Source: a bacterium
GTDB lineage: Bacteria; Patescibacteriota; Minisyncoccia; Phycocordibacterales; UBA9973
Reading direction: 5' to 3'
Assembly (NCBI GenBank): GCA_021831595.1
Contig: JAKBMK010000025.1
Location: 63,114 to 127,113 of the forward strand
DNA length: 64,000 nt
A program made the position numbers and the translations under genes. Shown here piece by piece: positions 736 to 63,276 of this stretch; the first letter of the stretch is position 1, and the number at the start of each line of letters is the position of its first letter. The notes under the pieces are model-generated. The model did not search any database. It was not told the origin of the DNA and worked only from the letters and a program-made list of their open reading frames with translations.

Positions 736-1446
736 ATGGAAAATAACGAAAAAGGCAATTTGCATCCGCTTACTCTTATAATGAATGAGGCTGTTTCTAT
801 ATTTAAAGATTTCGGTTTTGTTGTTGAATCTGGTCCTGAAATGGAAGATGACTGGCACAATTTCGGTGCTCTGAATTTCCCGGATGATCACCCAGCTCGC
901 GACATGCAAGACACCTTTTTCATTAAAGGGCAGAAGGGAAAGGTTCTACGCACTCACACTTCGAATACTCAAGTAAGATTTATGGAGAAGCTAGTTGCTA
1001 TTGGTGGCAAACCTCCATTTGCTATTGTTGTACCAGGGAAAGTTTTCCGTAATGAGTCTACAGACACAGGGCATGAAATGCAGTTCTATCAACTTGAAGG
1101 ATTAATGATTGGTGAGGATATTTCTGTTGCCAATATGAAAGGTGTATTGCTTGAATTTTTCAAAAGATTTTTCGAAGGAGAAAATGTGGATATCAGACTT
1201 CGCCCAAGCTTCTTTCCATTCGTTGAGCCTGGATTTGAAATTGATTTGAAGAGAGGAGATAAGTGGATAGAACTTCTTGGAGCTGGAATGGTTCACCCCA
1301 ATGTCTTAGAGAATTGTGGAATCGATAGTAAAAAATACCAAGGATTTGCTTTTGGTATGGGGCTAGACCGTTTGATGAATATGAAGCTTCATACACCCGA
1401 TGTCAGGCTTTCTTATCAAGGAGATCTAAGACTTAATCAATTTTAG
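736..1446 (+). CDS. pheS: phenylalanine--tRNA ligase alpha subunit, catalytic core only; N-terminal ~100 aa of canonical PheS absent
   Basis: HPLT..FGF.V..GPE.EDDWHNFGALNFPDDHPARDMQDTFF, FRNE...THEMQFYQLEG, FPFVEP, GFAFGMGLDRL motifs. Only 35 bp upstream before the previous gene. Confidence 0.9.
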   Translation: MENNEKGNLHPLTLIMNEAVSIFKDFGFVVESGPEMEDDWHNFGALNFPDDHPARDMQDTFFIKGQKGKVLRTHTSNTQVRFMEKLVAIGGKPPFAIVVPGKVFRNESTDTGHEMQFYQLEGLMIGEDISVANMKGVLLEFFKRFFEGENVDIRLRPSFFPFVEPGFEIDLKRGDKWIELLGAGMVHPNVLENCGIDSKKYQGFAFGMGLDRLMNMKLHTPDVRLSYQGDLRLNQF

Positions 1447-1451
1447 GAGGA

Positions 1452-1538
1452 ATGAATCCCGTACGAAATAACGGGAATGAAATTATAAACTTAATAATTC
1501 TTTCTGAAAAAATAATGAGAGAATTTCGTACGGGATGA
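1452..1538 (+). CDS. 28-codon SD-led small ORF between pheS and pheT (MNPVRNNGNEIINLIILSEKIMREFRTG); its TGA overlaps the pheT ATG (ATGA)
   Basis: AGGAGG at 1445-1450 sits 1 nt before ATG 1452. The frame stays open to TGA 1536-1538, which overlaps the pheT start. Its two ends are encoded by the arms of a 14-bp inverted repeat. Confidence 0.25.
   Translation: MNPVRNNGNEIINLIILSEKIMREFRTG
1456..1536 (+). repeat. perfect 14-bp inverted repeat (ATCCCGTACGAAAT / ATTTCGTACGGGAT) with ~53-nt loop spanning the pheS-pheT junction; 3' arm ends at the pheT start codon
   Basis: Direct reading: 1456-1469 is the reverse complement of 1523-1536. Confidence 0.6.
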
Positions 1539-3316
1539 AAATTTCTTATAACTGGTTACAAAAATATTTTAAAGATAAACTTCCATCTCCAGAGGAAGTT
1601 GCTTCTGGTATAATTTTTCATTCATTTGAAGTTGAAGAGGTGAACGTAATGGGGAATGACACTATTTTTGAAATAAAAATTTTACCTGATAGAGCCCATG
1701 ATTGTCTTTCTCATTTTGGAATTGCCAAGGAGCTCTCTGTAATTTTCAGTAAACAAATGATTGTGGATGAGCCAACCAATATTATCGTTTGCCCCAAATC
1801 AGATTTGGAAATAGAAGTCAAAGATGCAAAGTGTCGTCGTTATATGGGGAGAGTTGTAAAGAATGTGAAAGTCTCTCCATCGCCAGAGTGGCTTCGCCAA
1901 GCACTCGTTTCTATCGGTCAGAAGTCTATCAACAATATAGTTGATGCGACGAACTATGTGATGTTCGATCTAGGCAACCCTATCCATGCTTTTGATCTAG
2001 ATAAGCTTGCCAGTCATAAAATCATTGTAGATAAAGCATTAAATGGCGAGAAATTGACCTTGCTAGATGATAGAGATGTGATCCTCGATGAATCAATCCT
2101 TACAATTCGTGATGAGACAGAAGCTCTAGTTGTCGCTGGAGTTAAGGGAGGCAAGAAGGCAGAGGTTGATAATAATACTAAAAATATAATGATCGAAGTA
2201 GCGAACTTTGAACCAGTTTCTACTCGCAAGGCAGCTCAAAAGCTTTCTATCTTTACTGATTCAGCCAAAAGATTCGAGAACGAAATTCATCCAAAATTAG
2301 CAGAGATAGCAATGGATAAAATCACAAAATTAATTCTTGAAATTGGAGGAGGGGAGGTGTGTGAAGTCGTAGATATTTATAACAATAAGCAAGAAGAATC
2401 CAAGTTAATTAACTTCAGTAGAGATTATATAGAGAAAATGCTAGGCATAGATATATCTTCTACTGTTATTGATGATATTTTAAACCGATTTGGTTATGAA
2501 TACAAAAATGAAAATGGTAATTATGAAGTGAAGATACCCCTACTTCGGTTTGATCTGAGTGGTCCACATGATATGGCCGAGGAGATAGGGCGAATCTATG
2601 GTTATGATAAAATCACTCCAGTTTTGCCTCATGAGGATTTCAATATAAATGAAGATGAGACTTGGTACAACATAAATCTAGCGAAAAGATATTTGGCTAG
2701 TCTTGGCTACAAAGAAGTGATGACTTACACTTTCGTCGACAAAGGGGAAGTAGAGCTCATGGCTTCTGCTTCTGACAAAAACTTTTTACGCACGAATTTG
2801 CTAGATGGAGTAAAGAAATCTTTTGAAATGAATAAACTTAACATGCCTCTCTTGGATTTGAAAGAGTTGAAAATTTTTGAAATCGGAAGTATTTTCTTGC
2901 ATGATGGAGAAGTTATGAATGTTTGCTTTATGAACAAAAAAGAATCTAAAGAAATGAGTCTTCTAGAATTTGTGAAAACAATCCCTTCAGATTTTTCTTC
3001 TGGAGAAATAAAAAATAATTCCAAAAATTATTTCAAAATGTGGTCTAACTATCCATTCATCTCTCGCGATATCGCCGTCTGGGTACCAGTAGAGGAAGGC
3101 AAAGAAAAATTAAAAAATATTTTAAAGGAGAATGGGACAGAGCTGCTAGTGAAGGAACCATATCTTTTCGATGAGTTCACAAAAGAAGGAAGAACTTCGT
3201 ATGCCTATCGTTTAGTCTTCCAATCATATGAAAAAACTTTGACAGATGAAGAGGTAAATCCTATCATGAATAAAATTACAGAAAAAATTTCATCACTAGG
3301 TTGGGAGGTGAGATAA
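1535..3316 (+). CDS. pheT: phenylalanine--tRNA ligase beta subunit (short form, 593 aa)
   Basis: N-terminus MKISYNWLQKYF is typical of PheT. B3/4 and B5-like regions and a C-terminal anticodon-binding region are present. Follows pheS. Confidence 0.9.
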   Translation: MKISYNWLQKYFKDKLPSPEEVASGIIFHSFEVEEVNVMGNDTIFEIKILPDRAHDCLSHFGIAKELSVIFSKQMIVDEPTNIIVCPKSDLEIEVKDAKCRRYMGRVVKNVKVSPSPEWLRQALVSIGQKSINNIVDATNYVMFDLGNPIHAFDLDKLASHKIIVDKALNGEKLTLLDDRDVILDESILTIRDETEALVVAGVKGGKKAEVDNNTKNIMIEVANFEPVSTRKAAQKLSIFTDSAKRFENEIHPKLAEIAMDKITKLILEIGGGEVCEVVDIYNNKQEESKLINFSRDYIEKMLGIDISSTVIDDILNRFGYEYKNENGNYEVKIPLLRFDLSGPHDMAEEIGRIYGYDKITPVLPHEDFNINEDETWYNINLAKRYLASLGYKEVMTYTFVDKGEVELMASASDKNFLRTNLLDGVKKSFEMNKLNMPLLDLKELKIFEIGSIFLHDGEVMNVCFMNKKESKEMSLLEFVKTIPSDFSSGEIKNNSKNYFKMWSNYPFISRDIAVWVPVEEGKEKLKNILKENGTELLVKEPYLFDEFTKEGRTSYAYRLVFQSYEKTLTDEEVNPIMNKITEKISSLGWEVR

Positions 3317-6145: not shown

Positions 6146-7885
6146 TTAATTTAGAATCCTTTCTTTAATTTCTTTTTGAAGTTTATTTAGGAATGCTTCG
6201 ACTGTTATTCCTTCGAGTTTCTCAGTGCGGCCTTCGACGGTTATAACACCTGATTCTTTTTCTTTATCGCCAATAACTATTACATAAGGCACCTTGCTCA
6301 TCTTGGCATTTCTTATTCTCTTGCCCAGAGATTCATTTGAGTCATCTAAGCCGGCTCTTATATTTATTTCTTTTAGAGATTCATATACAGAATTTGCATA
6401 TTCTTTCTGATGTTCGGAGATCGGCAACACGACGACTTGAACAGGAGAAAGCCAGAGAGGGAAATTACCCGAAGTGTGTTCTATGAGAATAGATAAGAAT
6501 CTTTCTATCGATCCCATAATAGCGGCATGGATCATCACAATTCTCTCTTTTTCTCCCTTTTCATTCATACAAGTGAGATCAAATCTTTCTGGCATATTCA
6601 TATCAAGTTGGATTGTGGCTACTTGCCATTCTCTACCTAGAGCGTCATTTGCCATAAAGTCGAGCTTTGGACCATAGAAAGCAGCTTCGCCTATGCCGTC
6701 ATATGTTGGTACGTTTTTGCTTTCTGCTATTTCTGTTAGCATTTTCTCTGCAAAACTCCATCTTTCCTGGTCTCCTAAATATTTTTCTATATGCTCGGGG
6801 TCGTGTTTTGATATTCTTACTTTTAATTCAAATCCAAAACTCTTATAGAACCCCTCGACAATTTCCCAAATATTTAAGAACTCTTTCTTTGCATCACTCA
6901 TTCTGCAGAAAACATGTGCATCATCTTGAGCGAAAGCTCTAACTCTTGAAAGTCCAGATAATTCACCGGATTGTTCGTCTCTGTAGCAAGTAGTAGTGTT
7001 GGCATATCTTTGTGGTAACTCTTTGTAACTCCACATTTTGCGATCATAGATCTGAGTGTGATGAGGACAATTCATTGGCTTCATCGCGAACTCATGTCCT
7101 TCACGTGTTGTAATGCGGAATAAATCATCTTTGTATTTTTCCCAATGACCACTTTTCTCATATAAATCTTTTTTAGTGATATGAGGAATTTCTACTTTTT
7201 GGTATCCTTTCATTTGACGGAATGACCATACATAATCGTCTAGCAAGTGTCTAACTAAAGTTCCTTTTGGAGTCCAAAGAGGAAGACCTGGTCCTACAAG
7301 TTCAGAAAATGTGAATAAATCTAATTCTAACCCAAGTTTCTTGTGATCTCTTTTCTTGGCTTCTTCTTGCATTTTTATATATGAATCAAGCTCATCTTTT
7401 GTTTCAAAAGCAAGTCCATATACACGTGTAAGCATTTTGTTCTTCTCGTCTCCACGCCAATAGGCTCCGGCAATACGTTCAATCTTCCAAGAACCATCCT
7501 TCACATCCTTCATATTTTTGATATGTCCGCCACGGCAAAGATCAGCAAAGTTACCAGATCTATAGACTGTAATTTCTTCTCCTTTTTCAACTATTCCATC
7601 TATTAATTCTTCTTTATAAGTATTTCCAGCAAACATAGAAAGAGCTTCTTCTTTTGAAAGAACTTCTTTTTCAAAAGAGGTCCAAGTCTTCATGAGTTCC
7701 TTCATCTTTTTTTCAATCTTTTCTATGTCGGCATCAGTGATTTTACCCTTAACATCTACATCGTAGTAAAAGCCGTTATCAATAGCCGGACCAAGAGTGA
7801 TCTGTGATCCAGGGTAAAGTTCTAGTATAGATGCTCCTAAGAGGTGAGCTAGAGAGTGACGGATATGTTCTAATTTATTTTCCAT
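6146..7885 (-). CDS. thrS: threonine--tRNA ligase (lacks N-terminal TGS/editing region; 579 aa)
   Basis: HIRHSLAHLLG (second additional domain), class II motifs, C-terminal anticodon-binding domain. A T-box leader upstream carries a plausible Thr ACC specifier. Confidence 0.95.
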   Translation of the reverse strand: MENKLEHIRHSLAHLLGASILELYPGSQITLGPAIDNGFYYDVDVKGKITDADIEKIEKKMKELMKTWTSFEKEVLSKEEALSMFAGNTYKEELIDGIVEKGEEITVYRSGNFADLCRGGHIKNMKDVKDGSWKIERIAGAYWRGDEKNKMLTRVYGLAFETKDELDSYIKMQEEAKKRDHKKLGLELDLFTFSELVGPGLPLWTPKGTLVRHLLDDYVWSFRQMKGYQKVEIPHITKKDLYEKSGHWEKYKDDLFRITTREGHEFAMKPMNCPHHTQIYDRKMWSYKELPQRYANTTTCYRDEQSGELSGLSRVRAFAQDDAHVFCRMSDAKKEFLNIWEIVEGFYKSFGFELKVRISKHDPEHIEKYLGDQERWSFAEKMLTEIAESKNVPTYDGIGEAAFYGPKLDFMANDALGREWQVATIQLDMNMPERFDLTCMNEKGEKERIVMIHAAIMGSIERFLSILIEHTSGNFPLWLSPVQVVVLPISEHQKEYANSVYESLKEINIRAGLDDSNESLGKRIRNAKMSKVPYVIVIGDKEKESGVITVEGRTEKLEGITVEAFLNKLQKEIKERILN

Positions 7886-7899
7886 ATATTTTTAAAAAT

Positions 7900-8100
7900 T
7901 ATTATTGATAAAATAAAATCGCCCCGACAAAAAATGAAAAATTCATTTCTTGTCGGGGCGAGTCTAATCGCGGTTCCACCCAACTTTGTGCTTTATTTAT
8001 AGATTAGCCGTTAGGTCCCGAAGGGGATTGTGGTTGGTAGCCACAACAATCTCTATAGGTACAATAGTACAATGTATAGATTCAAATAGCAATATTTGAC
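7900..8100 (-). ncRNA. T-box riboswitch leader of thrS (putative Thr specifier ACC), with terminator/antiterminator
   Basis: On the minus strand: GTTGGG-[TGGAACC]-GCG-attagact-CGC-CCCGAC forms a canonical antiterminator. The 7-nt bulge contains the T-box UGGN, where N=A matches the U discriminator of the tRNA-Thr in this window. The CCCCGAC strand is also the 5' arm of terminator cgccccgacaag..ttgtcggggcg plus U-tract, immediately before the thrS ATG. Upstream hairpin attgtgg-CTACCAA-ccacaat shows ACC followed by A. Confidence 0.75.
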
Positions 8101-8179
8101 AAAATAGTTTATTTATTATATTATTTGGCTGAAATTTATTGCTAAAATCATAAGATAACCCAAAAGGAGGGGGTTAAAA

Positions 8180-8725
8180 ATGTCAGTTTTAAAGTACATA
8201 AGGACCCGGGAGGAGATGGGGAAATATATAGAATCCCTACAAAAAAATGGTCCTGTAAGTGTGCGCCTCGTAGGAGGTACATCTAAAAATGGCAAAAATG
8301 CGGCTTTTGTTATTTTCAAGTTGAAGTTTTTAAATGAATATTATTTATTAGTTATTCCATACAATGATACATATCATTTGAAAGAAGAAGTGGAACTAAT
8401 TGATGAATATGAATCACCCAGAGAAACTGCTGCTCGTGAATTCTTCGAAGAAGTTGGGATTAGAATCAGATCCGATTCTAAATCTCTTAAACTTTTCGAT
8501 ATGATACGAGTCAGAAGTAATTTGAAAAAAGGGGCAATTCATAAAAAATATTTCTTTAGATACATAGAAGAGATTCCTGATTTTTGGGATTATTCAGTTC
8601 TCTTTGAAGAAAGAGAGGATGAAACCCAAACGCCGTTTTTTATAAAGGAATCACTGATCTCTGAATTTCTATATAAAGAGCACTATAAAGCTTTTAAAAG
8701 AAATTGGCGAAAAAGATTTAATTAA
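8180..8725 (+). CDS. hypothetical protein with degenerate Nudix box (ETAAREFFEEVGI)
   Basis: Strong SD AAAGGAGGGGG before the ATG. REFFEEVGI matches REx2EExGu of the Nudix box. Followed by terminator hairpin aaaccccgaa..ttcggggttt. Confidence 0.5.
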   Translation: MSVLKYIRTREEMGKYIESLQKNGPVSVRLVGGTSKNGKNAAFVIFKLKFLNEYYLLVIPYNDTYHLKEEVELIDEYESPRETAAREFFEEVGIRIRSDSKSLKLFDMIRVRSNLKKGAIHKKYFFRYIEEIPDFWDYSVLFEEREDETQTPFFIKESLISEFLYKEHYKAFKRNWRKRFN

Positions 8726-9008: not shown

Positions 9009-9074
9009 TAAGCAGTAGGTAGTAAGGTTTAGGTCTTGCTACTTCCTACGTATTTCTTACACATAATTATAATT

Positions 9075-9980
9075 ATGGCAAATAGGCACCTTTCACGTTC
9101 AATTGTTCTTCAGACACTCTTTGAGTGGGATTTTGGAGTAGAAAAAGACACTAAGTCTGAAGACATGTTAGCTCGAAATATAGAAGAATTTGGACCAGGT
9201 CTTGATGACTCGCATTTTATGAGCGAGTTATTTTTAGGTGTTACAAAGAAGAAAGCGATTATCGATGAGATTATAGAGAAAGCTGCACCAGATTGGCCTA
9301 TCGATAAGATTTCTGCTATTGATAGAAATATTCTTCGTCTAGGATTGTACGAACTTCTTTTTGGAGATAGAGAGCAGGTGCCTCCTAAGGTTGCTATCAA
9401 TGAAGCTATAGAACTCGCCAAAAGTTTCGGCGGAGAGAATTCTAGCCGTTTTATAAACGGAGTACTCGGTGGTGTCTATAAAGAAATAGGTGAACCAGGC
9501 AAAGACGATGTAAGTTCTCATAAAAAGCATAAACATTTTGAAACAGATCCATCCAAGTTTCCAATAGAAAAGAAAGCCGGAGCCGTCGTATATGCAAAAC
9601 ATGACGGTGATATATATTTTGCTTTTGTTCATGATGTTTTTGGTTATTGGACCCTCTCAAAAGGTAGTATAGAAGATGGAGAAAATGAAGAGCAAGGCGC
9701 AGTACGTGAAATAAAAGAAGAAATGGGGGTTGATATAAAAATCAAAGAACTTCTTGGGCGTAGTGAATACATAGCAACGCACCCAGAGAATGGAAAGATC
9801 CGCAAGCAAGTAGTATTCTTCTTGGGAGAGACACAATATGGAGATTTGGTACTTGAAAAGGGTAGTGGTGGTCTTGATGACGCAAAGTGGTTTAAGATGG
9901 AAGAAGTTGCAGGACTCAAAATGTACGATAATATGGTGCCACTTCTCACAAAAGCTGTAGAAATTTTAACAAAAGAATAG
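9075..9980 (+). CDS. nusB: NusB (N-terminal) fused to a Nudix hydrolase domain (C-terminal)
   Basis: N-terminus: DRNILRLGLYELLF..VPPKVAINEAIELAKSFGGENSSRFINGVLGGV (NusB). C-terminus: GSIEDGENEEQGAVREIKEEMGVDI (perfect Gx5Ex7REUxEExGU). The ORF-track start 9036 is a TTG; ATG 9075 is preferred. Confidence 0.8.
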   Translation: MANRHLSRSIVLQTLFEWDFGVEKDTKSEDMLARNIEEFGPGLDDSHFMSELFLGVTKKKAIIDEIIEKAAPDWPIDKISAIDRNILRLGLYELLFGDREQVPPKVAINEAIELAKSFGGENSSRFINGVLGGVYKEIGEPGKDDVSSHKKHKHFETDPSKFPIEKKAGAVVYAKHDGDIYFAFVHDVFGYWTLSKGSIEDGENEEQGAVREIKEEMGVDIKIKELLGRSEYIATHPENGKIRKQVVFFLGETQYGDLVLEKGSGGLDDAKWFKMEEVAGLKMYDNMVPLLTKAVEILTKE

Positions 9981-32129: not shown

Positions 32130-32205
32130 TGGAGCCGCTTCTCAGACTTGAACTGAGGACCTTCGCTTTACAAAAGCGTTGCTCTACCAACTGAGCTAAA
32201 GCGGC
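32130..32205 (-). tRNA. tRNA-Thr (anticodon UGU), CCA encoded
   Basis: Minus-strand GCCGCTTTAGCTCAGTTGGTAGAGCAACGCTTTTGTAAAGCGAAGGTCCTCAGTTCAAGTCTGAGAAGCGGCTCCA. Cloverleaf folds, anticodon loop TTTGTAA, discriminator U. Confidence 0.85.
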
Positions 32206-53659: not shown

Positions 53660-55747
53660 ATGGAAAATGAAATTCCACACAATAGGGACATAACTTATTT
53701 TGCTAAGACGAACTTTCGTAGTAGTAATGCTATTTTTGGCATAAAAAGAAAGGACCGCCGCCAGCATATGTATGTTCTCGGGAAATCAGGTACTGGTAAA
53801 TCTGTACTTCTCTCTAACCTTATTGTTCAAAATATTCAAAATGGAGAAGGTGTCTGTGTTGTTGACCCGCACGGTGAACTTGTAGAAGAAATTCTTCATC
53901 TTATTCCTGATCATAGAGCTAAAGATGTTATCTACTTTAATCCAGCCGATACAGACTTTCATATTGGGTTCAATGTTATTCAACTCGATGATCCAAAGTA
54001 CAAACACTTGGTGGCTTCAGGCCTCATGGGAATCTTTACAAAGATTTGGGCTAACGCTTGGAGTTCTCGTATGGAGTACATTTTGAACAACGCTATTCTT
54101 GCCTTGCTTGATACACCAGGGACGACTCTTCTAGGAATCCCTCGTCTTCTTGTCGACAAGGATTATCGTCAGATGATAATAGGTAACTTGAAGGATCCTG
54201 TGGTCAAAGCTTTCTGGGTACATGAGTATGAGCAATGGCGTGAGCAATTCAGAAATGAAGCTATCGCTCCTATTCAGAACAAGGTTGGTCAATTCCTTTC
54301 AACTTCTATTATTCGTAATGTTGTTGGTCAACCAAAATCCACCATTGATATCTTCAAAATAATGAACGAAGGAAAAATTTTCCTTGTGAATGTTTCAAAA
54401 GGACGTATTGGTGAGGATAACTCTGCACTTCTTGGAGGTATGATTATTACGAAGATTCAGCTTGCTGCCATGGAACGTGTGCGTATACCTGAAGAAGAAA
54501 GAAAAGACTTTTATCTATATGTCGACGAATTCCAAAATTTTGCAACTGACTCTTTTGCCAATATTCTTTCTGAAGCTCGAAAGTATCGTCTGAACCTTAC
54601 TGTTGCTCACCAGTACACAGCTCAGCTTGAAAACAAAGATGGTTCTAAAGTTCGCGATGCTGTCTTTGGTAACGTGGGGACAATGATTATATTCAGGGTT
54701 GGAGCTGATGATGCAGATTTCTTGGAAAAAGAATTTGAACCGGAATTTATGGCTCAGGATTTAGTTAATTTGCCGAACTACAATGTCTATCTAAAACTTA
54801 TGATTGATGGTGTAACTAGTCGACCTTTTTCTGCTATTACTTTGCCGCCAATAAAAGTTGATGCGACTTCGGGCGTGAAAGATAAAATTATCGAATCATC
54901 TCGTAAGCTTTATACTCGTTCTAGAAAAGAAGTAGAGGATGATATTGCCAAATGGAGTGGAATGCTTCAAATAGGAGAGGGCGAAGCTAAATACAAGGCT
55001 GATTGTTCTAACTGTAAGAAAAGTACGATGGTTCCTTTTGAACCAAAAGATGGTCGTCCTGTCTATTGCAAAGAATGTATGTTTAAAATCAAGAATGGTG
55101 AATTGAAGCCTGAAAGTGGATTTATCGCTTCGCGATCTTCTCGCCAAGAAGAAAAAGCTTCTACTGCACCACTTGCAGCTCTTGGTATTGAATTTGGAGT
55201 TACAGATAATGATTTTAGAATCTCAAAAAATCACGATCAAGTTAAATCTTCCAACGGTAACCACAATCACAATCATAATAGTCATAACCACAATAACCAT
55301 TCTGTAAAAAATGACAAGAAACATGCAGGCCCCTCACCACTTCTCAAGGGATTACTTGAAAAGATAGGTATAAACAACAGGGGAAGTATTTCGACAGATA
55401 AGATAGAGGCAAAGGAAGTAAAGAAAGAAGTTCCAGCTCCTATCTCTCTTTCTTCTCTTAAAAAAGATACACATGATAATCATAAAGTTGATCATACAAT
55501 TCCAACAAAAGAAGCTTCAGATGAGAAGAAAGCTTCATTGAAAGATTTACTTACAAAAACAGCGCATAATCATAATCATGAGATTAAAGAAGAAAAAACT
55601 CCAATAGTTAAAACCGAAGAGAAGGACCCTGAATCAAAAGTTATTACACCACAGGAACCAGATACAAAAACCAATACTGATTCTTGGCAAAAGCATAAAA
55701 CAAAGAAAGAAGTTCCTGAGGATGTACTCCGTAAAGTCTTAGAATAA
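53660..55747 (+). CDS. FtsK/HerA-superfamily ATPase paralog 2 (T4CP-like) with C-terminal CxxC..CxxC zinc ribbon and His/Lys-rich low-complexity tail
   Basis: Same motif set as 50688 (VLGKSGTGKS, VVDPHGEL, YLYVDEFQN, ARKYRLNLTVAHQYTAQL). Then CSNCKKSTMVPFEPKDGRPVYCKECMF and NGNHNHNHNSHNHNNH / HNHNHE tracts. Confidence 0.55.
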   Translation: MENEIPHNRDITYFAKTNFRSSNAIFGIKRKDRRQHMYVLGKSGTGKSVLLSNLIVQNIQNGEGVCVVDPHGELVEEILHLIPDHRAKDVIYFNPADTDFHIGFNVIQLDDPKYKHLVASGLMGIFTKIWANAWSSRMEYILNNAILALLDTPGTTLLGIPRLLVDKDYRQMIIGNLKDPVVKAFWVHEYEQWREQFRNEAIAPIQNKVGQFLSTSIIRNVVGQPKSTIDIFKIMNEGKIFLVNVSKGRIGEDNSALLGGMIITKIQLAAMERVRIPEEERKDFYLYVDEFQNFATDSFANILSEARKYRLNLTVAHQYTAQLENKDGSKVRDAVFGNVGTMIIFRVGADDADFLEKEFEPEFMAQDLVNLPNYNVYLKLMIDGVTSRPFSAITLPPIKVDATSGVKDKIIESSRKLYTRSRKEVEDDIAKWSGMLQIGEGEAKYKADCSNCKKSTMVPFEPKDGRPVYCKECMFKIKNGELKPESGFIASRSSRQEEKASTAPLAALGIEFGVTDNDFRISKNHDQVKSSNGNHNHNHNSHNHNNHSVKNDKKHAGPSPLLKGLLEKIGINNRGSISTDKIEAKEVKKEVPAPISLSSLKKDTHDNHKVDHTIPTKEASDEKKASLKDLLTKTAHNHNHEIKEEKTPIVKTEEKDPESKVITPQEPDTKTNTDSWQKHKTKKEVPEDVLRKVLE

Positions 55748-59453: not shown

Positions 59454-60971
59454 CTATTTCAATATTTTTATATCTGCTCCAATTTTGTTTAGACGTTCGG
59501 CGATTTCTTCATATCCGCGATTGATCATGTAGACATTGCGAAGGATAGAAGTACCATTTGCTCCGAGCATGCCAATAAGAATTATCATGGCCGGACGGAG
59601 AGCTGGAGGGCAGACAACTTGAGCTGGCTTTAATGTTGTGCCGCCCTGGATATAAACTCTGTGTGGGTCGGCGAGGGTGATGCTTGCTCCTAAACGATTA
59701 AGCTCGGTAAAATATATTGCACGATTCTCATATACCCAGTCATGGATCATTGTCTGACCTTTAGCTTTTATGGCGATAGGTACGAAGAACGGAAGATTAT
59801 CCATATTTATACCAGGATATGGGAGAGCATGAATTTTATCTTCTAATGCTGTGAGTTTTGATGGGAGGATTTTGATATCCACTAGGTTTGTCCTACCATT
59901 ATATGATTTGTAGATTTTAGATAATTTATATTTAAGTCCCATTCTCTTCAATTTTTCAAGTTCTAGTGAAAGGAAGTCGATAGGCGAGCGGGTAATAGTG
60001 AGCTCTGAGTCTGTAGTTATAGCAGCCGATATGAACATCATAGATTCGATAGGGTCCTCACTATTCGTATACTCAACATCTATATTGATATCTTTCACTC
60101 CATGGATGATAAGTGTACTTGTGCCTATACCATCAATTTTCACACCAAGCTTTTCAAGGAAAAAGCAGATTTCTTGCACCATGTAGTTGGCACTTGCAAA
60201 TCTGATAGTTGTTGTGTCGTTTATTCTTGCTACTGCAGTGAGTATATTTTCGCAGGCTGTATCTCCAGCTTCGTACATGACAATGTCAGCTCCCTTTAAT
60301 TTTTTACTTTCTATTTGATAGGCACTATTTGTTGTTTTGATCTTTACCCCTAAATCCTCTAGTGCATAAGTATGAGCAGAAATAGTACGCTTACCAAGCT
60401 TACACCCAGAAGCATGAGGGATCGAAAATGAAGGCAAGAGATGAATAAGTGGGCCAATAAGCATTATGACTGAGCGGGTCTTGATTGCAGATTCGACATT
60501 TATCTTATCCATTTTAAACTCTTTAGGTGGAGTTATTATCAAAGAGTTTTTATCAATCCACTTCACAGAAACGCCGATACTTTCTATTATTTCTATGACT
60601 CTGTTTACTTCTTCGATACGAGCGATACCATGGAGAGTTGTCTTGCCACGATTGAGCAGGGAAGCGCATAGGAGTCCTACTGCTCCATTTTTAGAGAAGT
60701 TGGTGGCTATACTTCCATGCAATTTCTTGCCACCATTTATCTGGAAATCGATGGAATTATTTATTGATACTATCTGGTGTTCGAGCACTTCACTTATCTT
60801 GCTTAATATCTCAGTACTGAAATTCTGTTCACCTTTCTCCATTCTTGCGACAGCTGATTGCGACGTCTCAAGTGCCTTAGCGAAAGAGTCTTGGGTCATT
60901 CCTCTGCGTTCACGAAGTTCCTTTATAAAAATACCTATTTTTTGTTGATCTGTTTGTTTCATACTAGTCAT
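59454..60971 (-). CDS. murA: XRE-family HTH domain fused to UDP-N-acetylglucosamine 1-carboxyvinyltransferase (MurA)
   Basis: Residues 1-70: LRERRGMTQDSFAKALETSQSAVARMEKGEQN (HTH_XRE). Remainder aligns along full-length MurA (INGGKKLHGSIATNFSKNGAVGLL..., Cys loop HASGCKLGKRTISAH, C-terminal NRGYEEIAERLNKIGADI). Confidence 0.85.
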   Translation of the reverse strand: MTSMKQTDQQKIGIFIKELRERRGMTQDSFAKALETSQSAVARMEKGEQNFSTEILSKISEVLEHQIVSINNSIDFQINGGKKLHGSIATNFSKNGAVGLLCASLLNRGKTTLHGIARIEEVNRVIEIIESIGVSVKWIDKNSLIITPPKEFKMDKINVESAIKTRSVIMLIGPLIHLLPSFSIPHASGCKLGKRTISAHTYALEDLGVKIKTTNSAYQIESKKLKGADIVMYEAGDTACENILTAVARINDTTTIRFASANYMVQEICFFLEKLGVKIDGIGTSTLIIHGVKDINIDVEYTNSEDPIESMMFISAAITTDSELTITRSPIDFLSLELEKLKRMGLKYKLSKIYKSYNGRTNLVDIKILPSKLTALEDKIHALPYPGINMDNLPFFVPIAIKAKGQTMIHDWVYENRAIYFTELNRLGASITLADPHRVYIQGGTTLKPAQVVCPPALRPAMIILIGMLGANGTSILRNVYMINRGYEEIAERLNKIGADIKILK

Positions 60972-62061: not shown

Positions 62062-62142
62062 GCCGGGGTGGCGTAATGGTAGCCGCGCTCGACTCAAAAT
62101 CGAGTCTCGCAAGAGGTGGAAGTTCAAGTCTTCTCCCCGGCA
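62062..62142 (+). tRNA. tRNA-Leu (anticodon CAA), long variable arm, no encoded CCA
   Basis: GCCGGGGTGGCGTAATGGTAGCCGCGCTCGACTCAAAATCGAGTCTCGCAAGAGGTGGAAGTTCAAGTCTTCTCCCCGGCA. Confidence 0.9.
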
Positions 62143-62145
62143 CAG

Positions 62146-63276
62146 ATGAATAATTCGCTTTCATATATAGAAATCTCAAAAGAGAATTTGATGCACAATA
62201 TCAAGCAATTTAAGGGTTTGCTTAAGAAGGATACAAAAGTAGCAGCTGTTATCAAGGCCAATGCTTATGGCCACGGCGATAAAGAAGTGGCTAAAATAGC
62301 TAGTCCTTATGTGGATTATTTTCAAGTAGATAGTATAGAAGAAGCAAAGAGGGTACGAAGTGTCAGTAAAAAATCAATACTTATATTTGGATATACAAAT
62401 CAAGATGGCATAAGGCAGGCAATAAAACTCAATGCTATTCTTTCTGGTTTTGATCTTGTGCACTTGCTTCTGATAAATCACGTAGCAGGGTCTTTGAAAA
62501 AGAAAGTGAAGGTTCACCTGGCTATAGATTCTTATTTGGGGAGAGAAGGAGTAATGCCTTCACAAGTAGAGAATATAATTAAAGAAATAAAAAATCTGAA
62601 GAATATTATTCTTGATGGAGTGTATTCACACTTTGCGAACATTGAAGATACGATGAATACGACTCACGCTAACAGGCAGATAGATACATACCATAAATGC
62701 GTCGAAATATTCAGAACAAATGGATACAAGAATATAAATACTCACATATCTGCAACTTCTGGAATTCTTGTGTATGAAAAAGGGGAGAATCTGCACAGCA
62801 TCGTTCGTCTTGGTATTGGGCTCTATGGTATGTGGCCAAGTGAACACCTAGAGTATTTGAATAAAAAGAAAATAAATTTGAAACCAGTTCTAAAGTGGGT
62901 GACTCACATCGCTCAGGTAAAGATTATTCCTGCCAATCATCCTATTGGCTATGGACTTACATATATAACAAAGAAAAACACGAAGATTGCTGTAGTACCG
63001 CAAGGGTACTTTGACGGACTAACTCGTACAATGTCGAATAACGGCGAATTCCTTATAAAGGGAAAGAAAGCTAAAATACTTGGCAGAGTCGCGATGAATA
63101 TGACGGTTGTAGACGTCTCAAATATCAAAGATGTAATACCAGGAGATGAAGTGGTGATAATCGGAGCCCAAGGTAAGATTCAAATAACCGCCGAAGATGT
63201 AGCCAAAAAGATGGATACTATAAACTACGAGGTAACTACCAAGATTAGTGCGCTGCTCCCTAGGATTATTGCTTAA
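62146..63276 (+). CDS. alr: alanine racemase
   Basis: AVIKANAYGHG PLP-lysine motif, C-terminal MNMTVVDVS. Start at ATG 62146, after the tRNA; ORF-track 62116 overlaps the tRNA. Confidence 0.9.
   Translation: MNNSLSYIEISKENLMHNIKQFKGLLKKDTKVAAVIKANAYGHGDKEVAKIASPYVDYFQVDSIEEAKRVRSVSKKSILIFGYTNQDGIRQAIKLNAILSGFDLVHLLLINHVAGSLKKKVKVHLAIDSYLGREGVMPSQVENIIKEIKNLKNIILDGVYSHFANIEDTMNTTHANRQIDTYHKCVEIFRTNGYKNINTHISATSGILVYEKGENLHSIVRLGIGLYGMWPSEHLEYLNKKKINLKPVLKWVTHIAQVKIIPANHPIGYGLTYITKKNTKIAVVPQGYFDGLTRTMSNNGEFLIKGKKAKILGRVAMNMTVVDVSNIKDVIPGDEVVIIGAQGKIQITAEDVAKKMDTINYEVTTKISALLPRIIA

What the first reader, a model, noticed from the sequence alone, without database searches (positions are those of the whole stretch)
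7900..8100. Canonical T-box antiterminator upstream of a reduced thrS, consistent with the local tRNA-Thr
On the minus strand the leader shows helix A1 (GTTGGG/CCCGAC), the 7-nt bulge UGGAACC, helix A2 (GCG/CGC), and a mutually exclusive terminator. Within the bulge, UGGA would pair with the ACCU 3' end of the tRNA-Thr at 32130-32205. A hairpin loop CUACCAA offers an ACC specifier followed by purine, though as a terminal loop rather than the usual internal Stem I loop. A textbook T-box next to a minimal ThrRS in a streamlined genome is a useful phylogenetic and regulatory marker.
Basis: partly seen in the sequence, partly recalled or inferred. Interest (0 to 1): 0.5.

Follow-up and report, generated by a model that had tools for sequence, protein, structure and literature searches.

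The report
Stripped-down tRNA-sensing switch before thrS
Upstream of the threonyl-tRNA synthetase gene of this ultra-small (Patescibacteria) bacterium sits a real but unusually reduced T-box riboswitch that shows the threonine codon ACC in a small anticodon-loop-like hairpin, lacks most parts thought necessary for this RNA class, and is missed by the standard database model.

Summary
On the minus strand, 8057-7909 holds a T-box antiterminator (A1 GUUGGG/CCCGAC, bulge UGGAACC, A2 GCG/CGC). A 20-bp terminator with a U tract overlaps it, and upstream is a hairpin with the loop CUACCAA. thrS starts at 7885.

It is not a textbook T-box. Rfam RF00230 scores 22.7 bits against a gathering score of 93. 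Only the 3' core aligns. There is no K-turn, internal specifier loop, AG bulge/distal loop platform, Stem II S-turn or Stem III.

Seventeen further thrS leaders from Patescibacteria share the architecture:
- an outer helix P1;
- a 6-bp hairpin with a 7-nt loop that carries ACC in 18 of 18 sequences;
- an optional P2 and a short P3;
- a purine-rich linker, the antiterminator and a strong terminator.

Across these leaders 97% of pair cells form standard pairs, and 11 pairs show compensatory changes.

The bulge UGGA matches the UCCA end of the window's tRNA-Thr. That tRNA's UGU anticodon mismatches the third base of ACC, so the expected ligand is a tRNA-Thr(GGU) not found in the window.

Best reading: a transcription-attenuating tRNA-Thr T-box of a new reduced architecture. 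The closest known kind is the "ultrashort"/class III ileS T-box of Actinobacteria, which is translational and depends on Stem II. I found no prior report.

The parts
8064..8092 (-). Putative sigma-70-type promoter of the thrS leader: -35 TTGCTA (8092-8087), 17-nt spacer, -10 TACTAT (8069-8064). The predicted start is about 8057, the first base of P1.
   Evidence: Inferred. It is below the threshold of the simple scan, but the cTTGt-17 nt-TAtTAT block is conserved at the same distance from P1 in 13 related leaders.
8047..8057 (-). 5' strand of outer helix P1 (UAUAG 8057-8053), followed by the invariant junction nucleotides AG (8052-8051), AUU (8050-8048) and G (8047).
   Evidence: P1a pairs covary (U-A to C-G in 5 sequences, A-U to G-C in 1). 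The AUU/AAU pairing involves invariant bases and is inferred. The minimum-free-energy fold of the isolated domain gives P1 plus three hairpins.
8028..8046 (-). Specifier hairpin SL1: 6-bp stem (UUGUGG/CCACAA) and 7-nt loop CUACCAA (8040-8034). The Thr codon ACC is 8038-8036, followed by A. The loop has the layout of an anticodon loop (Y-U-NNN-R-N).
   Evidence: Five of the 6 stem pairs show compensatory changes and 99% of cells are paired. RNAalifold predicts the hairpin independently. ACC is at loop positions 3-5 in 18 of 18 leaders. Apical ACC loops also occur on other scaffolds in L004, L054, L019 and L020.
8016..8027 (-). P2, a variable hairpin (UCCC-CUUC-GGGA).
   Evidence: It varies in length and sequence but pairs in most relatives. 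It is absent in L081, L086 and L110.
8008..8015 (-). P3, a short hairpin (CC-UAAC-GG) directly before the invariant CU.
   Evidence: The helix is kept with different sequences in relatives: CC/GG, CU/AG, GGAG/CUCC, GGAA/UUCC, GCA/UGC.
7998..8007 (-). Invariant CU (8007-8006), AAU (8005-8003) and the 3' strand of P1 (CUAUA 8002-7998). CUAAUC is invariant in all relatives.
7985..7997 (-). Single-stranded purine-rich linker AAUAAAGCACAAA. It keeps the purine flanks (AAAGCA..AA) that surround Stem III in other T-boxes, but has no Stem III hairpin.
   Evidence: The linker does not fold (0.0 kcal/mol) in the window and in 11 other close relatives. More distant relatives (L003, L008, L010, L014, L085) carry RRRxG-Stem III-AA at this position, and L087 keeps a weak hairpin there. 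The motif definition is from PMC7583486.
7952..7984 (-). Antiterminator (T-box proper): A1 7984-7979/7957-7952, bulge UGGAACC 7978-7972, A2 7971-7969/7960-7958.
   Evidence: (aligned to RF00230 with high posterior probability). A1 covaries: GUUGGG/CCCGAC versus GCUCGG/CCGAGC, with 3 pairs changed on both sides. RNAalifold predicts it. Its energy is -10.4 kcal/mol.
7909..7961 (-). Intrinsic terminator: a 20-pair hairpin (7961-7919) plus U tract (7918-7909). Its 5' arm contains the 3' strands of A2 and A1.
   Evidence: The fold of the discriminator region containing it is -36.8 kcal/mol, against -10.4 for the antiterminator. All 18 family members have an equivalent long hairpin followed by U-rich sequence.
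6146..7885 (-). thrS, threonyl-tRNA synthetase, 579 aa, without the N-terminal TGS domain.
32130..32205 (-). tRNA-Thr(UGU) with discriminator U73 and an encoded CCA. Its 3' end matches the bulge, but its anticodon mismatches ACC at the third codon position.

Best explanation
This is a transcription-attenuating T-box riboswitch for thrS with a reduced, non-canonical architecture that recurs in Patescibacteria.

Inferred sequence of events:
1. Transcription starts at about 8057.
2. The first ~60 nt fold into a four-way junction. Helix P1 closes it, hairpin SL1 displays the threonine codon ACC in a 7-nt anticodon-loop-like apical loop, and hairpins P2 and P3 complete it.
3. The anticodon of tRNA-Thr (expected GGU) pairs loop-to-loop with ACC.
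4. If the tRNA is uncharged, its 3' UCCA pairs with UGGA of the T-box bulge. This stabilises the weak antiterminator (-10.4 kcal/mol), so RNA polymerase reads through into thrS.
5. If the tRNA is charged or absent, the far more stable overlapping terminator forms and transcription stops at the U tract 7918-7909.

Shown here: the sequence elements, their conservation and covariation, the mutual exclusivity of the two folds, their exclusive position upstream of thrS, and the match of UGGA to a tRNA-Thr 3' end.

Inferred: tRNA binding itself, which isoacceptor binds, the transcription start, the AUU/AAU pairing, and how the complex is stabilised without the usual elbow, Stem II and Stem III contacts.
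For: - The T-box core matches the consensus perfectly and is unique in the window. RF00230 aligns the antiterminator with high posterior probability.
- Seventeen other thrS leaders share the architecture. A model built from 16 sequences scores these at 82-130 bits and found two new ones, L161 and L164, at 119-125 bits.
- 97.3% of cells are paired, against 34-40% when partners are slid. Eleven pairs show compensatory change, and 0 of 500 shuffles reach the observed covariation score.
- RNAalifold recovers SL1 and the antiterminator on an unfitted alignment.
- ACC occupies loop positions 3-5 in 18 of 18 leaders, and the loop is CUACCAA in 16 of 18.
- Other CPR (candidate phyla radiation, i.e. 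Patescibacteria) thrS leaders show ACC either in apical loops on different scaffolds (L004, L054, L019, L020) or in a canonical internal specifier loop (L103, L104, L112, L117).
- All family members have UGGA, and the window's tRNA-Thr ends in UCCA.
- All 18 have a long terminator overlapping A1/A2.
- In 714 kb of fetched loci, every antiterminator-like site lies upstream of thrS on the sense strand.
- A specifier in an apical loop has precedent in class III/ultrashort T-boxes (bioRxiv 10.1101/2023.02.28.530422; PMC10482949).
Against: - RF00230 fails its gathering score here and in the 16 CPR thrS loci scanned (22.7-50.4 bits against 93; several gave no hit at E <= 0.01).
- Parts reported as essential in studied T-boxes are missing: the elbow-binding platform for transcriptional T-boxes, Stem II for short-Stem-I T-boxes, and Stem III for the discriminator (PMC7583486; PMC10482949). 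Function therefore cannot be assumed from homology alone.
- The only tRNA-Thr in the window has anticodon UGU, a mismatch with ACC. A tRNA-Thr(GGU) was not seen.
- The leader is absent from some close relatives, L162 and L163, so it is dispensable.
- There are no experimental data.
Confidence: 0.8

Rival explanations
1. It is an ordinary class I T-box, that merely looks short. On this reading the canonical Stem I, Stem II and Stem III exist but were overlooked.
For: The antiterminator and terminator are canonical. The thrS T-boxes of Firmicutes are class I, and thrS is T-box-controlled in almost all Firmicutes (PMC2494555).
Against: Only about 72 nt lie between the predicted start and A1. RF00230 aligns nothing 5' of the antiterminator with confidence and scores 22.7 bits. 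No K-turn, AGUA/GAA S-turn or distal-loop motif appears in the alignment of 18 leaders. The linker does not fold. Canonical long-Stem-I thrS leaders do exist in other CPR loci (L103, L117) and look quite different.
Confidence: 0.03
2. The antiterminator and terminator work as a T-box discriminator, but the CUACCAA hairpin is not the specifier. It could be a structural remnant of the distal part of Stem I (AGAGA plus hairpin) or a protein site. The switch would then sense any uncharged tRNA ending in UCCA, or would use another triplet.
For: 'AGAGAUUG' plus a hairpin resembles the AG bulge plus distal hairpin ('ACAGGGAUUG...') of the long-Stem-I CPR leaders. A second ACC lies at the P2/P3 boundary in the window-type leaders.
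Against: The second ACC is base-paired within P3 and is absent from the distant members L085, L010 and L003. The loop ACC followed by A is invariant in 18 of 18 leaders while the stem covaries. A 7-nt loop cannot form the 11-nt distal-loop T-loop platform (my own structural inference). ACC in an apical loop recurs on unrelated scaffolds. ACC is also the specifier of the canonical CPR thrS leaders.
Confidence: 0.08
3. The hairpin is an operator for ThrRS itself, as in E. coli thrS, where leader hairpins mimic the tRNA-Thr anticodon arm and bind the enzyme. Regulation would then be protein-mediated.
For: The hairpin has anticodon-arm geometry (a 7-nt loop of the form Y-U-NNN-R-N) and sits in a thrS leader.
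Against: The loop carries the codon ACC, not a Thr anticodon (GGU, UGU or CGU). By established knowledge of the E. coli system, ThrRS reads G35 and U36, which are C and C here. The leader also has a complete T-box bulge and a terminator, which such an operator does not need.
Confidence: 0.03
4. It is a decaying, non-functional relic of a T-box, or simply a constitutive terminator or attenuator.
For: The distribution is patchy: 47 of 75 CPR-type thrS loci with enough upstream sequence lack any T-box core, including the close relatives L162 and L163. Stem III is lost and the A2 G.U pair is replaced by G-C.
Against: Core motifs are invariant and helices change by compensation across ThrRS identities from about 57% to 100%. 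A relic would not maintain P1, SL1, A1 and the terminator together. An unregulated -36.8 kcal/mol terminator before an essential gene would be harmful (inference).
Confidence: 0.05

Closest known systems
Class III ('ultrashort Stem I') ileS T-boxes of Actinobacteria (Mycobacterium, Nocardia)
   Same: The specifier codon is displayed in the apical loop of a short hairpin. There is no elbow-binding double T-loop platform. The T-box bulge/NCCA sensing core is the same (bioRxiv 10.1101/2023.02.28.530422; PMC10482949).
   Different: The known ones all regulate ileS and respond to tRNA-Ile. They act on translation by sequestering the Shine-Dalgarno sequence. They have 5-6 nt loops, a K-turn, a Stem II S-turn they depend on, a IIA/B pseudoknot and Stem III. 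Here the gene is thrS and the output is an intrinsic terminator. The loop has 7 nt with anticodon-loop layout. The hairpin is enclosed with P2 and P3 by a closing helix P1. No S-turn or K-turn motif is present, and Stem III is absent in the window. The phylum is Patescibacteria.
Class II glyQS T-boxes (Bacillus, Geobacillus, Oceanobacillus)
   Same: They act by transcription attenuation, are compact, lack Stem II, and have a single-stranded linker between the decoding domain and the discriminator.
   Different: glyQS has a long Stem I with K-turn, internal specifier loop and an elbow-binding platform that is essential for rapid tRNA capture, plus Stem III (PMC7583486). None of these is present here.
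Class I thrS T-box of Bacillus subtilis and other Firmicutes (Rfam RF00230)
   Same: Same regulated gene, same logic, and the same antiterminator, bulge and terminator arrangement. The use of ACC as the Thr specifier there is from my own recollection, not checked here.
   Different: It has the full Stem I, II, IIA/B and III architecture and scores above the Rfam threshold. The window's leader scores 22.7 bits against 93.
Long-Stem-I thrS T-boxes in other Patescibacteria-like contigs (L103, L104, L112, L117, L122)
   Same: Same gene, ACC specifier and UGGAACC bulge.
   Different: These keep the K-turn (GCGAUGA...GAGC), AG bulge, distal loop, internal specifier loop and Stem III. They score 35-50 bits with RF00230, which is also below threshold.

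Membership tests
T-box leader (RF00230, general definition) | Conserved T-box sequence forming an antiterminator with helices A1 and A2 and a 7-nt bulge 5'-UGGNACC-3' | tested here: met
   AAAGUUGGGUGGAACCGCG at 7987-7969 with 0 mismatches to the consensus. A1 covaries in 18 leaders. RNAalifold predicts the structure.
T-box leader (RF00230, general definition) | Mutually exclusive intrinsic terminator that uses the 3' strands of A1 and A2 | tested here: met
   Twenty-pair hairpin 7961-7919 plus U tract. The fold containing it is -36.8 kcal/mol against -10.4 for the antiterminator. Present in all 18 relatives.
T-box leader (RF00230, general definition) | Specifier triplet that matches the amino acid of the downstream gene, followed by a purine | tested here: met
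   ACC followed by A at 8038-8035, upstream of thrS, invariant in 18 of 18 leaders. It lies in an apical loop rather than an internal loop.
T-box leader (RF00230, general definition) | The fourth bulge base is complementary to the discriminator base of the cognate tRNA | tested here: met
   UGGA pairs with U73-CCA of the window's tRNA-Thr(UGU). The expected GGU isoacceptor was not available to check.
T-box leader (RF00230, general definition) | Score at or above the Rfam gathering threshold (93 bits) | tested here: not met
   No hit at the gathering score. 22.7 bits in permissive mode. Among 16 CPR thrS loci scanned, the six that gave a hit scored 30-50 bits.
T-box leader (RF00230, general definition) | Long Stem I with K-turn, internal specifier loop, and AG bulge plus distal loop (the tRNA elbow platform) | tested here: not met
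   There is no room for it and no such motifs. The 5' domain is P1/SL1/P2/P3. Rfam aligns nothing there with confidence.
T-box leader (RF00230, general definition) | Stem III with its flanking purine string (RRRxG-Stem III-AA) | tested here: not met
   The window's linker AAUAAAGCACAAA does not fold. The purine flanks are kept but the hairpin is missing. It is present in the distant relatives L003, L008, L010, L014 and L085.
T-box leader (RF00230, general definition) | Readthrough depends on uncharged cognate tRNA | not testable with these tools
   This needs in vitro transcription or reporter assays.
Class III / ultrashort T-box | Short Stem I without an elbow platform, with the specifier in the apical loop | tested here: met
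   SL1 has a 6-bp stem and a 7-nt loop. The known class has 5-6 nt loops (PMC10482949).
Class III / ultrashort T-box | Stem II with an S-turn (purine string), joined through a K-turn, plus a IIA/B pseudoknot | tested here: not met
   P2 varies in sequence and is absent in three members. No AGUA/GAA or K-turn motif is present. P3 followed by CUAA loosely resembles Stem IIA followed by the F box, but its loops are not conserved, so a pseudoknot is not supported.
Class III / ultrashort T-box | Regulates ileS, with tRNA-Ile as ligand | tested here: not met
   The downstream gene is thrS and the specifier is ACC.
Class III / ultrashort T-box | Translational output (sequestrator and antisequestrator of the Shine-Dalgarno sequence) | tested here: not met
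   The output element is a terminator hairpin with a U tract, about 24 nt before the AUG. No Shine-Dalgarno sequence is involved.

The most novel reading that the evidence does not exclude
These leaders define a further architectural class of T-box, widespread in Patescibacteria. It would be the most reduced natural tRNA-sensing riboswitch so far, about 105 nt from P1 to the end of the antiterminator. tRNA identity would be read by a loop-loop 'kissing' contact between the tRNA anticodon loop and an anticodon-loop mimic held in a four-way junction. The switch would control transcription without the elbow platform, the Stem II S-turn or Stem III. That would contradict the current view that co-transcriptional T-boxes need the elbow contact and that Stem III is indispensable for sensing the tRNA 3' end.
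Probability: 0.5. Interest if true: 0.75.

Novelty: new variant of a known kind. Interest (0 to 1): 0.6.

Why it matters
T-boxes are the model system for RNA-RNA recognition of a whole tRNA. Current reviews state three requirements. Transcriptional T-boxes need a long Stem I with the elbow-binding platform. [quoted passage not shown] A conserved, covarying, terminator-linked thrS leader that lacks all three would set a new lower limit on what is needed to sense tRNA identity and charging during transcription. It would also be an attractive minimal scaffold for engineering.

It further shows that Patescibacteria, for which almost no RNA regulation is described, use tRNA-sensing attenuation. Standard annotation based on the Rfam RF00230 threshold, and databases derived from it, miss these elements. 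The practical yield is a covariance model (R1) and 18 aligned examples that could seed a new family.

Tried and rejected
- **Rfam.** Nothing but four tRNAs passes the gathering score in the window. The other permissive hits on 7850-8200 (rli60, snoRNA and miRNA families) merely align to the terminator hairpin and were dismissed as chance.
- **Other T-boxes in the window.** A motif scan found none. pheS has only 35 nt of upstream spacer.
- **The same scaffold with another codon before another gene.** This would prove the specifier assignment. None was found in the 714 kb of fetched loci, which are all thrS-centred, or in a viral-contig pattern scan.
- **A tRNA-Thr(GGU).** None lies in the window or in 23 related loci.
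- **The second ACC at the P2/P3 boundary as specifier.** Rejected because it is paired and not conserved.
- **A pseudoknot from the P3 loop.** Rejected because the loops are not conserved (GAAA, GUAA, UAAC, UUCC).
- **P1 register.** The minimum-free-energy fold prefers a continuous UAUAGA/UCUAUA helix. Covariation supports the five outer pairs in either register. The AUU/AAU pairs are invariant, so they remain unresolved.
- **Literature.** No paper in the library links T-boxes to Patescibacteria/CPR or describes a thrS apical-loop T-box. Sherwood et al. 2015 and 2018 are not held.

Full report
**1. What is there**

Read on the minus strand, the 295-nt spacer between a divergent NUDIX-like ORF (8180-8725, + strand) and the ORF 7885-6146 contains these elements, in order:
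- UAUAG-AG-AUU-G (8057-8047);
- hairpin UUGUGG-CUACCAA-CCACAA (8046-8028);
- hairpin UCCC-CUUC-GGGA (8027-8016);
- hairpin CC-UAAC-GG (8015-8008);
- CU-AAU-CUAUA (8007-7998);
- an unstructured purine-rich stretch AAUAAAGCACAAA (7997-7985);
- GUUGGG-UGGAACC-GCG-AUUAGACU-CGC-CCCGAC (7984-7952);
- a 20-pair hairpin (7961-7919) that reuses CGCCCCGAC as its 5' arm, followed by UUUUAUUUUA.

The ORF is ThrRS. It has 579 aa with tRNA_SAD, class II core and anticodon-binding domains, and no TGS domain. Its closest database relatives are annotated as Paceibacteria/Patescibacteria and are mostly of the same short length.

The T-box consensus AARnnnGGGUGGnACCGCG matches without mismatch. Only 0.01 matches are expected by chance in the window even when 2 mismatches are allowed. 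No second site exists in the 64 kb.

**2. The proposed database test fails, for an informative reason**

RF00230 gives no hit at its gathering score. On the 351-nt region alone it reaches 22.7 bits (gathering score 93, E = 0.0034). Only the antiterminator is aligned with high posterior probability, and the model's Stem I, II and III positions are deleted or forced onto promoter sequence.

The same holds across related leaders. Of 16 CPR (candidate phyla radiation, i.e. Patescibacteria) thrS loci scanned, six gave an RF00230 hit, at 30-50 bits. The comparative evidence below shows that the element is real and that the model simply does not cover this architecture.

**3. Comparative evidence**

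thrS loci were fetched from genome and metagenome collections and through exact-protein look-ups. Sixteen leaders, including the window's, aligned well.

I wrote a structure by eye: P1, SL1, A1 and A2. It gave 97% paired cells, against 34-40% when the 3' partners are slid. Eleven of 23 pairs carry changes on both sides, and no shuffle of 500 reached the observed covariation score.

A covariance model built from this alignment (R1) scores the seeds at 82-130 bits. It also found two independent new members, L161 and L164, at 119 and 125 bits. The statistics hold on the 18-sequence alignment. RNAalifold, run on the unfitted MAFFT alignment, independently predicts SL1 with its 7-nt loop and the A1/bulge/A2 antiterminator.

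Further points:
- P1 is supported by U-A to C-G exchange in 5 sequences and A-U to G-C in 1. The inner AUU/AAU pairs are invariant and remain an inference. The minimum-free-energy fold uses a slightly different register.
- P2 varies in length and is missing in three members.
- P3 is kept with different sequences: CC/GG, CU/AG, GGAG/CUCC, GGAA/UUCC.
- The bases AG, G and CU at the junction are invariant.
- A conserved -35/-10 pair sits at a fixed distance, which places the transcription start at the first base of P1.
- All 18 leaders end in a long hairpin followed by U-rich sequence that overlaps A1 and A2.
- In 714 kb of fetched DNA, every antiterminator-like site lies upstream of thrS on the sense strand.

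**4. The specifier**

The SL1 loop is CUACCAA in 16 of 18 leaders. The exceptions are UUACCAG and CAACCAA. ACC is at loop positions 3-5 in all 18, while five of the six stem pairs change by compensation. ACC is a threonine codon and is followed by the purine that T-box specifiers require.

The loop has the layout of an anticodon loop: pyrimidine, U, triplet, purine, N. The contact with the tRNA would therefore be a loop-loop pairing of two anticodon-type loops. That kind of complex is known from classical tRNA-tRNA studies to be far more stable than a free trinucleotide duplex (my own knowledge, not tested here).

Three further facts support the assignment:
- Other CPR thrS leaders on unrelated scaffolds also present ACC(A) in an apical loop: L004, L054, L019 and L020.
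- CPR thrS leaders with a canonical long Stem I carry ACC in the internal specifier loop: L103, L104, L112 and L117.
- The only other recurrent ACC, at the P2/P3 boundary, is base-paired and absent from distant members.

**5. The tRNA**

All family members have UGGA in the bulge. The window's tRNA-Thr ends GGC-U-CCA, so the acceptor-end match holds.

Its anticodon is UGU, which leaves U34 opposite the third C of ACC. The expected ligand is tRNA-Thr(GGU). None lies in the window or in 23 related loci.

ACU and ACC together make up 51% of Thr codons in the window's ORFs. A GGU isoacceptor is therefore likely to be encoded elsewhere in the genome, but this is not shown. A U34-C mismatch is tolerated by at least one studied T-box: the S. 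aureus glyS T-box responds to tRNA-Gly isoacceptors with GCC or UCC anticodons (abstract of PMC4574755, listed).

**6. Mechanism**

The fold containing the terminator has -36.8 kcal/mol, against -10.4 for the antiterminator. Termination is therefore the default state. Readthrough needs stabilisation of the antiterminator, which in T-boxes comes from the uncharged tRNA 3' end stacking and pairing with the bulge. Nothing in the sequence suggests a translational output: the terminator is followed by about 24 A/U-rich nucleotides and then the AUG.

**7. Comparison with known classes**

The literature read here describes four classes (PMC10482949):
- Classes I and II are transcriptional and have a long Stem I with an elbow platform.
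- Classes III and IV are mostly translational, actinobacterial ileS leaders without the platform. Class III carries the specifier in a 5-6 nt apical loop and requires Stem II.

All 'ultrashort' T-boxes known regulate ileS (bioRxiv 10.1101/2023.02.28.530422). A review states that transcriptional T-boxes generally require the elbow platform. It also states that the antiterminator alone, without Stem III, does not bind tRNA appreciably (PMC7583486).

The window's leader shares the apical-loop specifier with class III and the terminator output with classes I and II. It has none of the auxiliary modules: no K-turn, no platform, no S-turn, and in this subgroup no Stem III. The RRRxG...AA purine flanks remain. 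More distant members still have the hairpin, and L087 keeps a weak one. The A2 closing pair is G-C rather than G.U. A closing helix P1 that packs the specifier hairpin into a multi-helix junction is not part of any described class.

I therefore file it as a T-box by mechanism and by its core. It is not a member of the Rfam-defined family as modelled, nor of class III.

**8. Distribution and novelty**

Of 75 CPR-type thrS loci with enough upstream sequence, about 27 carry a UGGAACC antiterminator. Eighteen of them, counting the window, are of the type described here. Close relatives can lack it entirely, as L162 and L163 do.

No paper in the searchable library connects T-boxes with Patescibacteria or describes a thrS apical-loop T-box. 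The library is incomplete, so prior description cannot be excluded.

**9. Verdict**

- Observation: confirmed.
- Interpretation: partly right. It is a T-box with an ACC terminal-loop specifier. It is not canonical, and the local tRNA is not the best-matching isoacceptor.
- Novelty: a new variant of a known kind.
- Interest: moderate to high for RNA specialists, because it challenges the stated requirements for co-transcriptional tRNA sensing. Function remains untested.

Noticed in passing
window 9036-9980 (+); also L161, L162, L164, L165: NusB is fused to a C-terminal NUDIX hydrolase domain. The fusion is conserved next to rpmF and thrS in several related genomes.
   Followed up: partly
window 59454-60971 (-): A 505-aa protein combines an N-terminal HTH_3 DNA-binding domain with a full EPSP-synthase-fold (MurA/AroA-like) domain.
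   Followed up: no
window 736-1446 and 1535-3316 (+): pheS is only 236 aa and pheT 593 aa, both much shorter than usual. Only 35 nt separate pheS from the preceding helicase ORF, and no T-box is present.
   Followed up: partly
L162 1115-1200; L163 1115-1200: Close ThrRS relatives (78% and 74% identity) have only about 86 nt upstream of thrS and no T-box. The leader is therefore gained or lost on short evolutionary distances.
   Followed up: yes
L103 931-1119; L104; L112; L117 950-1148; L122: Other Patescibacteria-like thrS leaders keep a long Stem I (K-turn GCGAUGA..GAGC, AG bulge, distal loop, internal ACC specifier) and Stem III. L103 lacks Stem II. All are still below the Rfam threshold at 35-50 bits.
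   Followed up: partly
L004 1335-1375; L054 1360-1385; L019 1270-1295; L020 1140-1165: Further thrS leaders present ACC(A) in apical loops (CUACCAA, ACUACCAAC, UCACCAA) on scaffolds different from the window's. L019 may be translational, since it has a clear Shine-Dalgarno sequence and no obvious terminator.
   Followed up: partly
window 8057-8041 versus L103 970-990: 'AGAGAUUG' plus a hairpin in the window type resembles 'ACAGGGAUUG' plus the distal hairpin (the AG-bulge region) of the long-Stem-I type. The reduced form may descend from the distal part of a canonical Stem I, with the specifier relocated to the loop. This is speculation.
   Followed up: no
window 8096-8124 (+): A near-consensus promoter, TTGACA-17-TATTAT (11 of 12 matches), lies on the + strand for the divergent NUDIX-like ORF 8180-8725. 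It is back to back with the predicted thrS promoter.
   Followed up: no
window 53660-55747 (+): A type IV secretion coupling-protein-like ATPase (TrwB/TraG-type domains) with a treble-clef zinc finger.
   Followed up: no
window 62062-62143 and 62116-63276 (+): The mechanically listed ORF 62116-63276 (386 aa, GTG start) overlaps the 3' part of tRNA-Leu(CAA) at 62062-62143, so its true start is probably further downstream.
   Followed up: no
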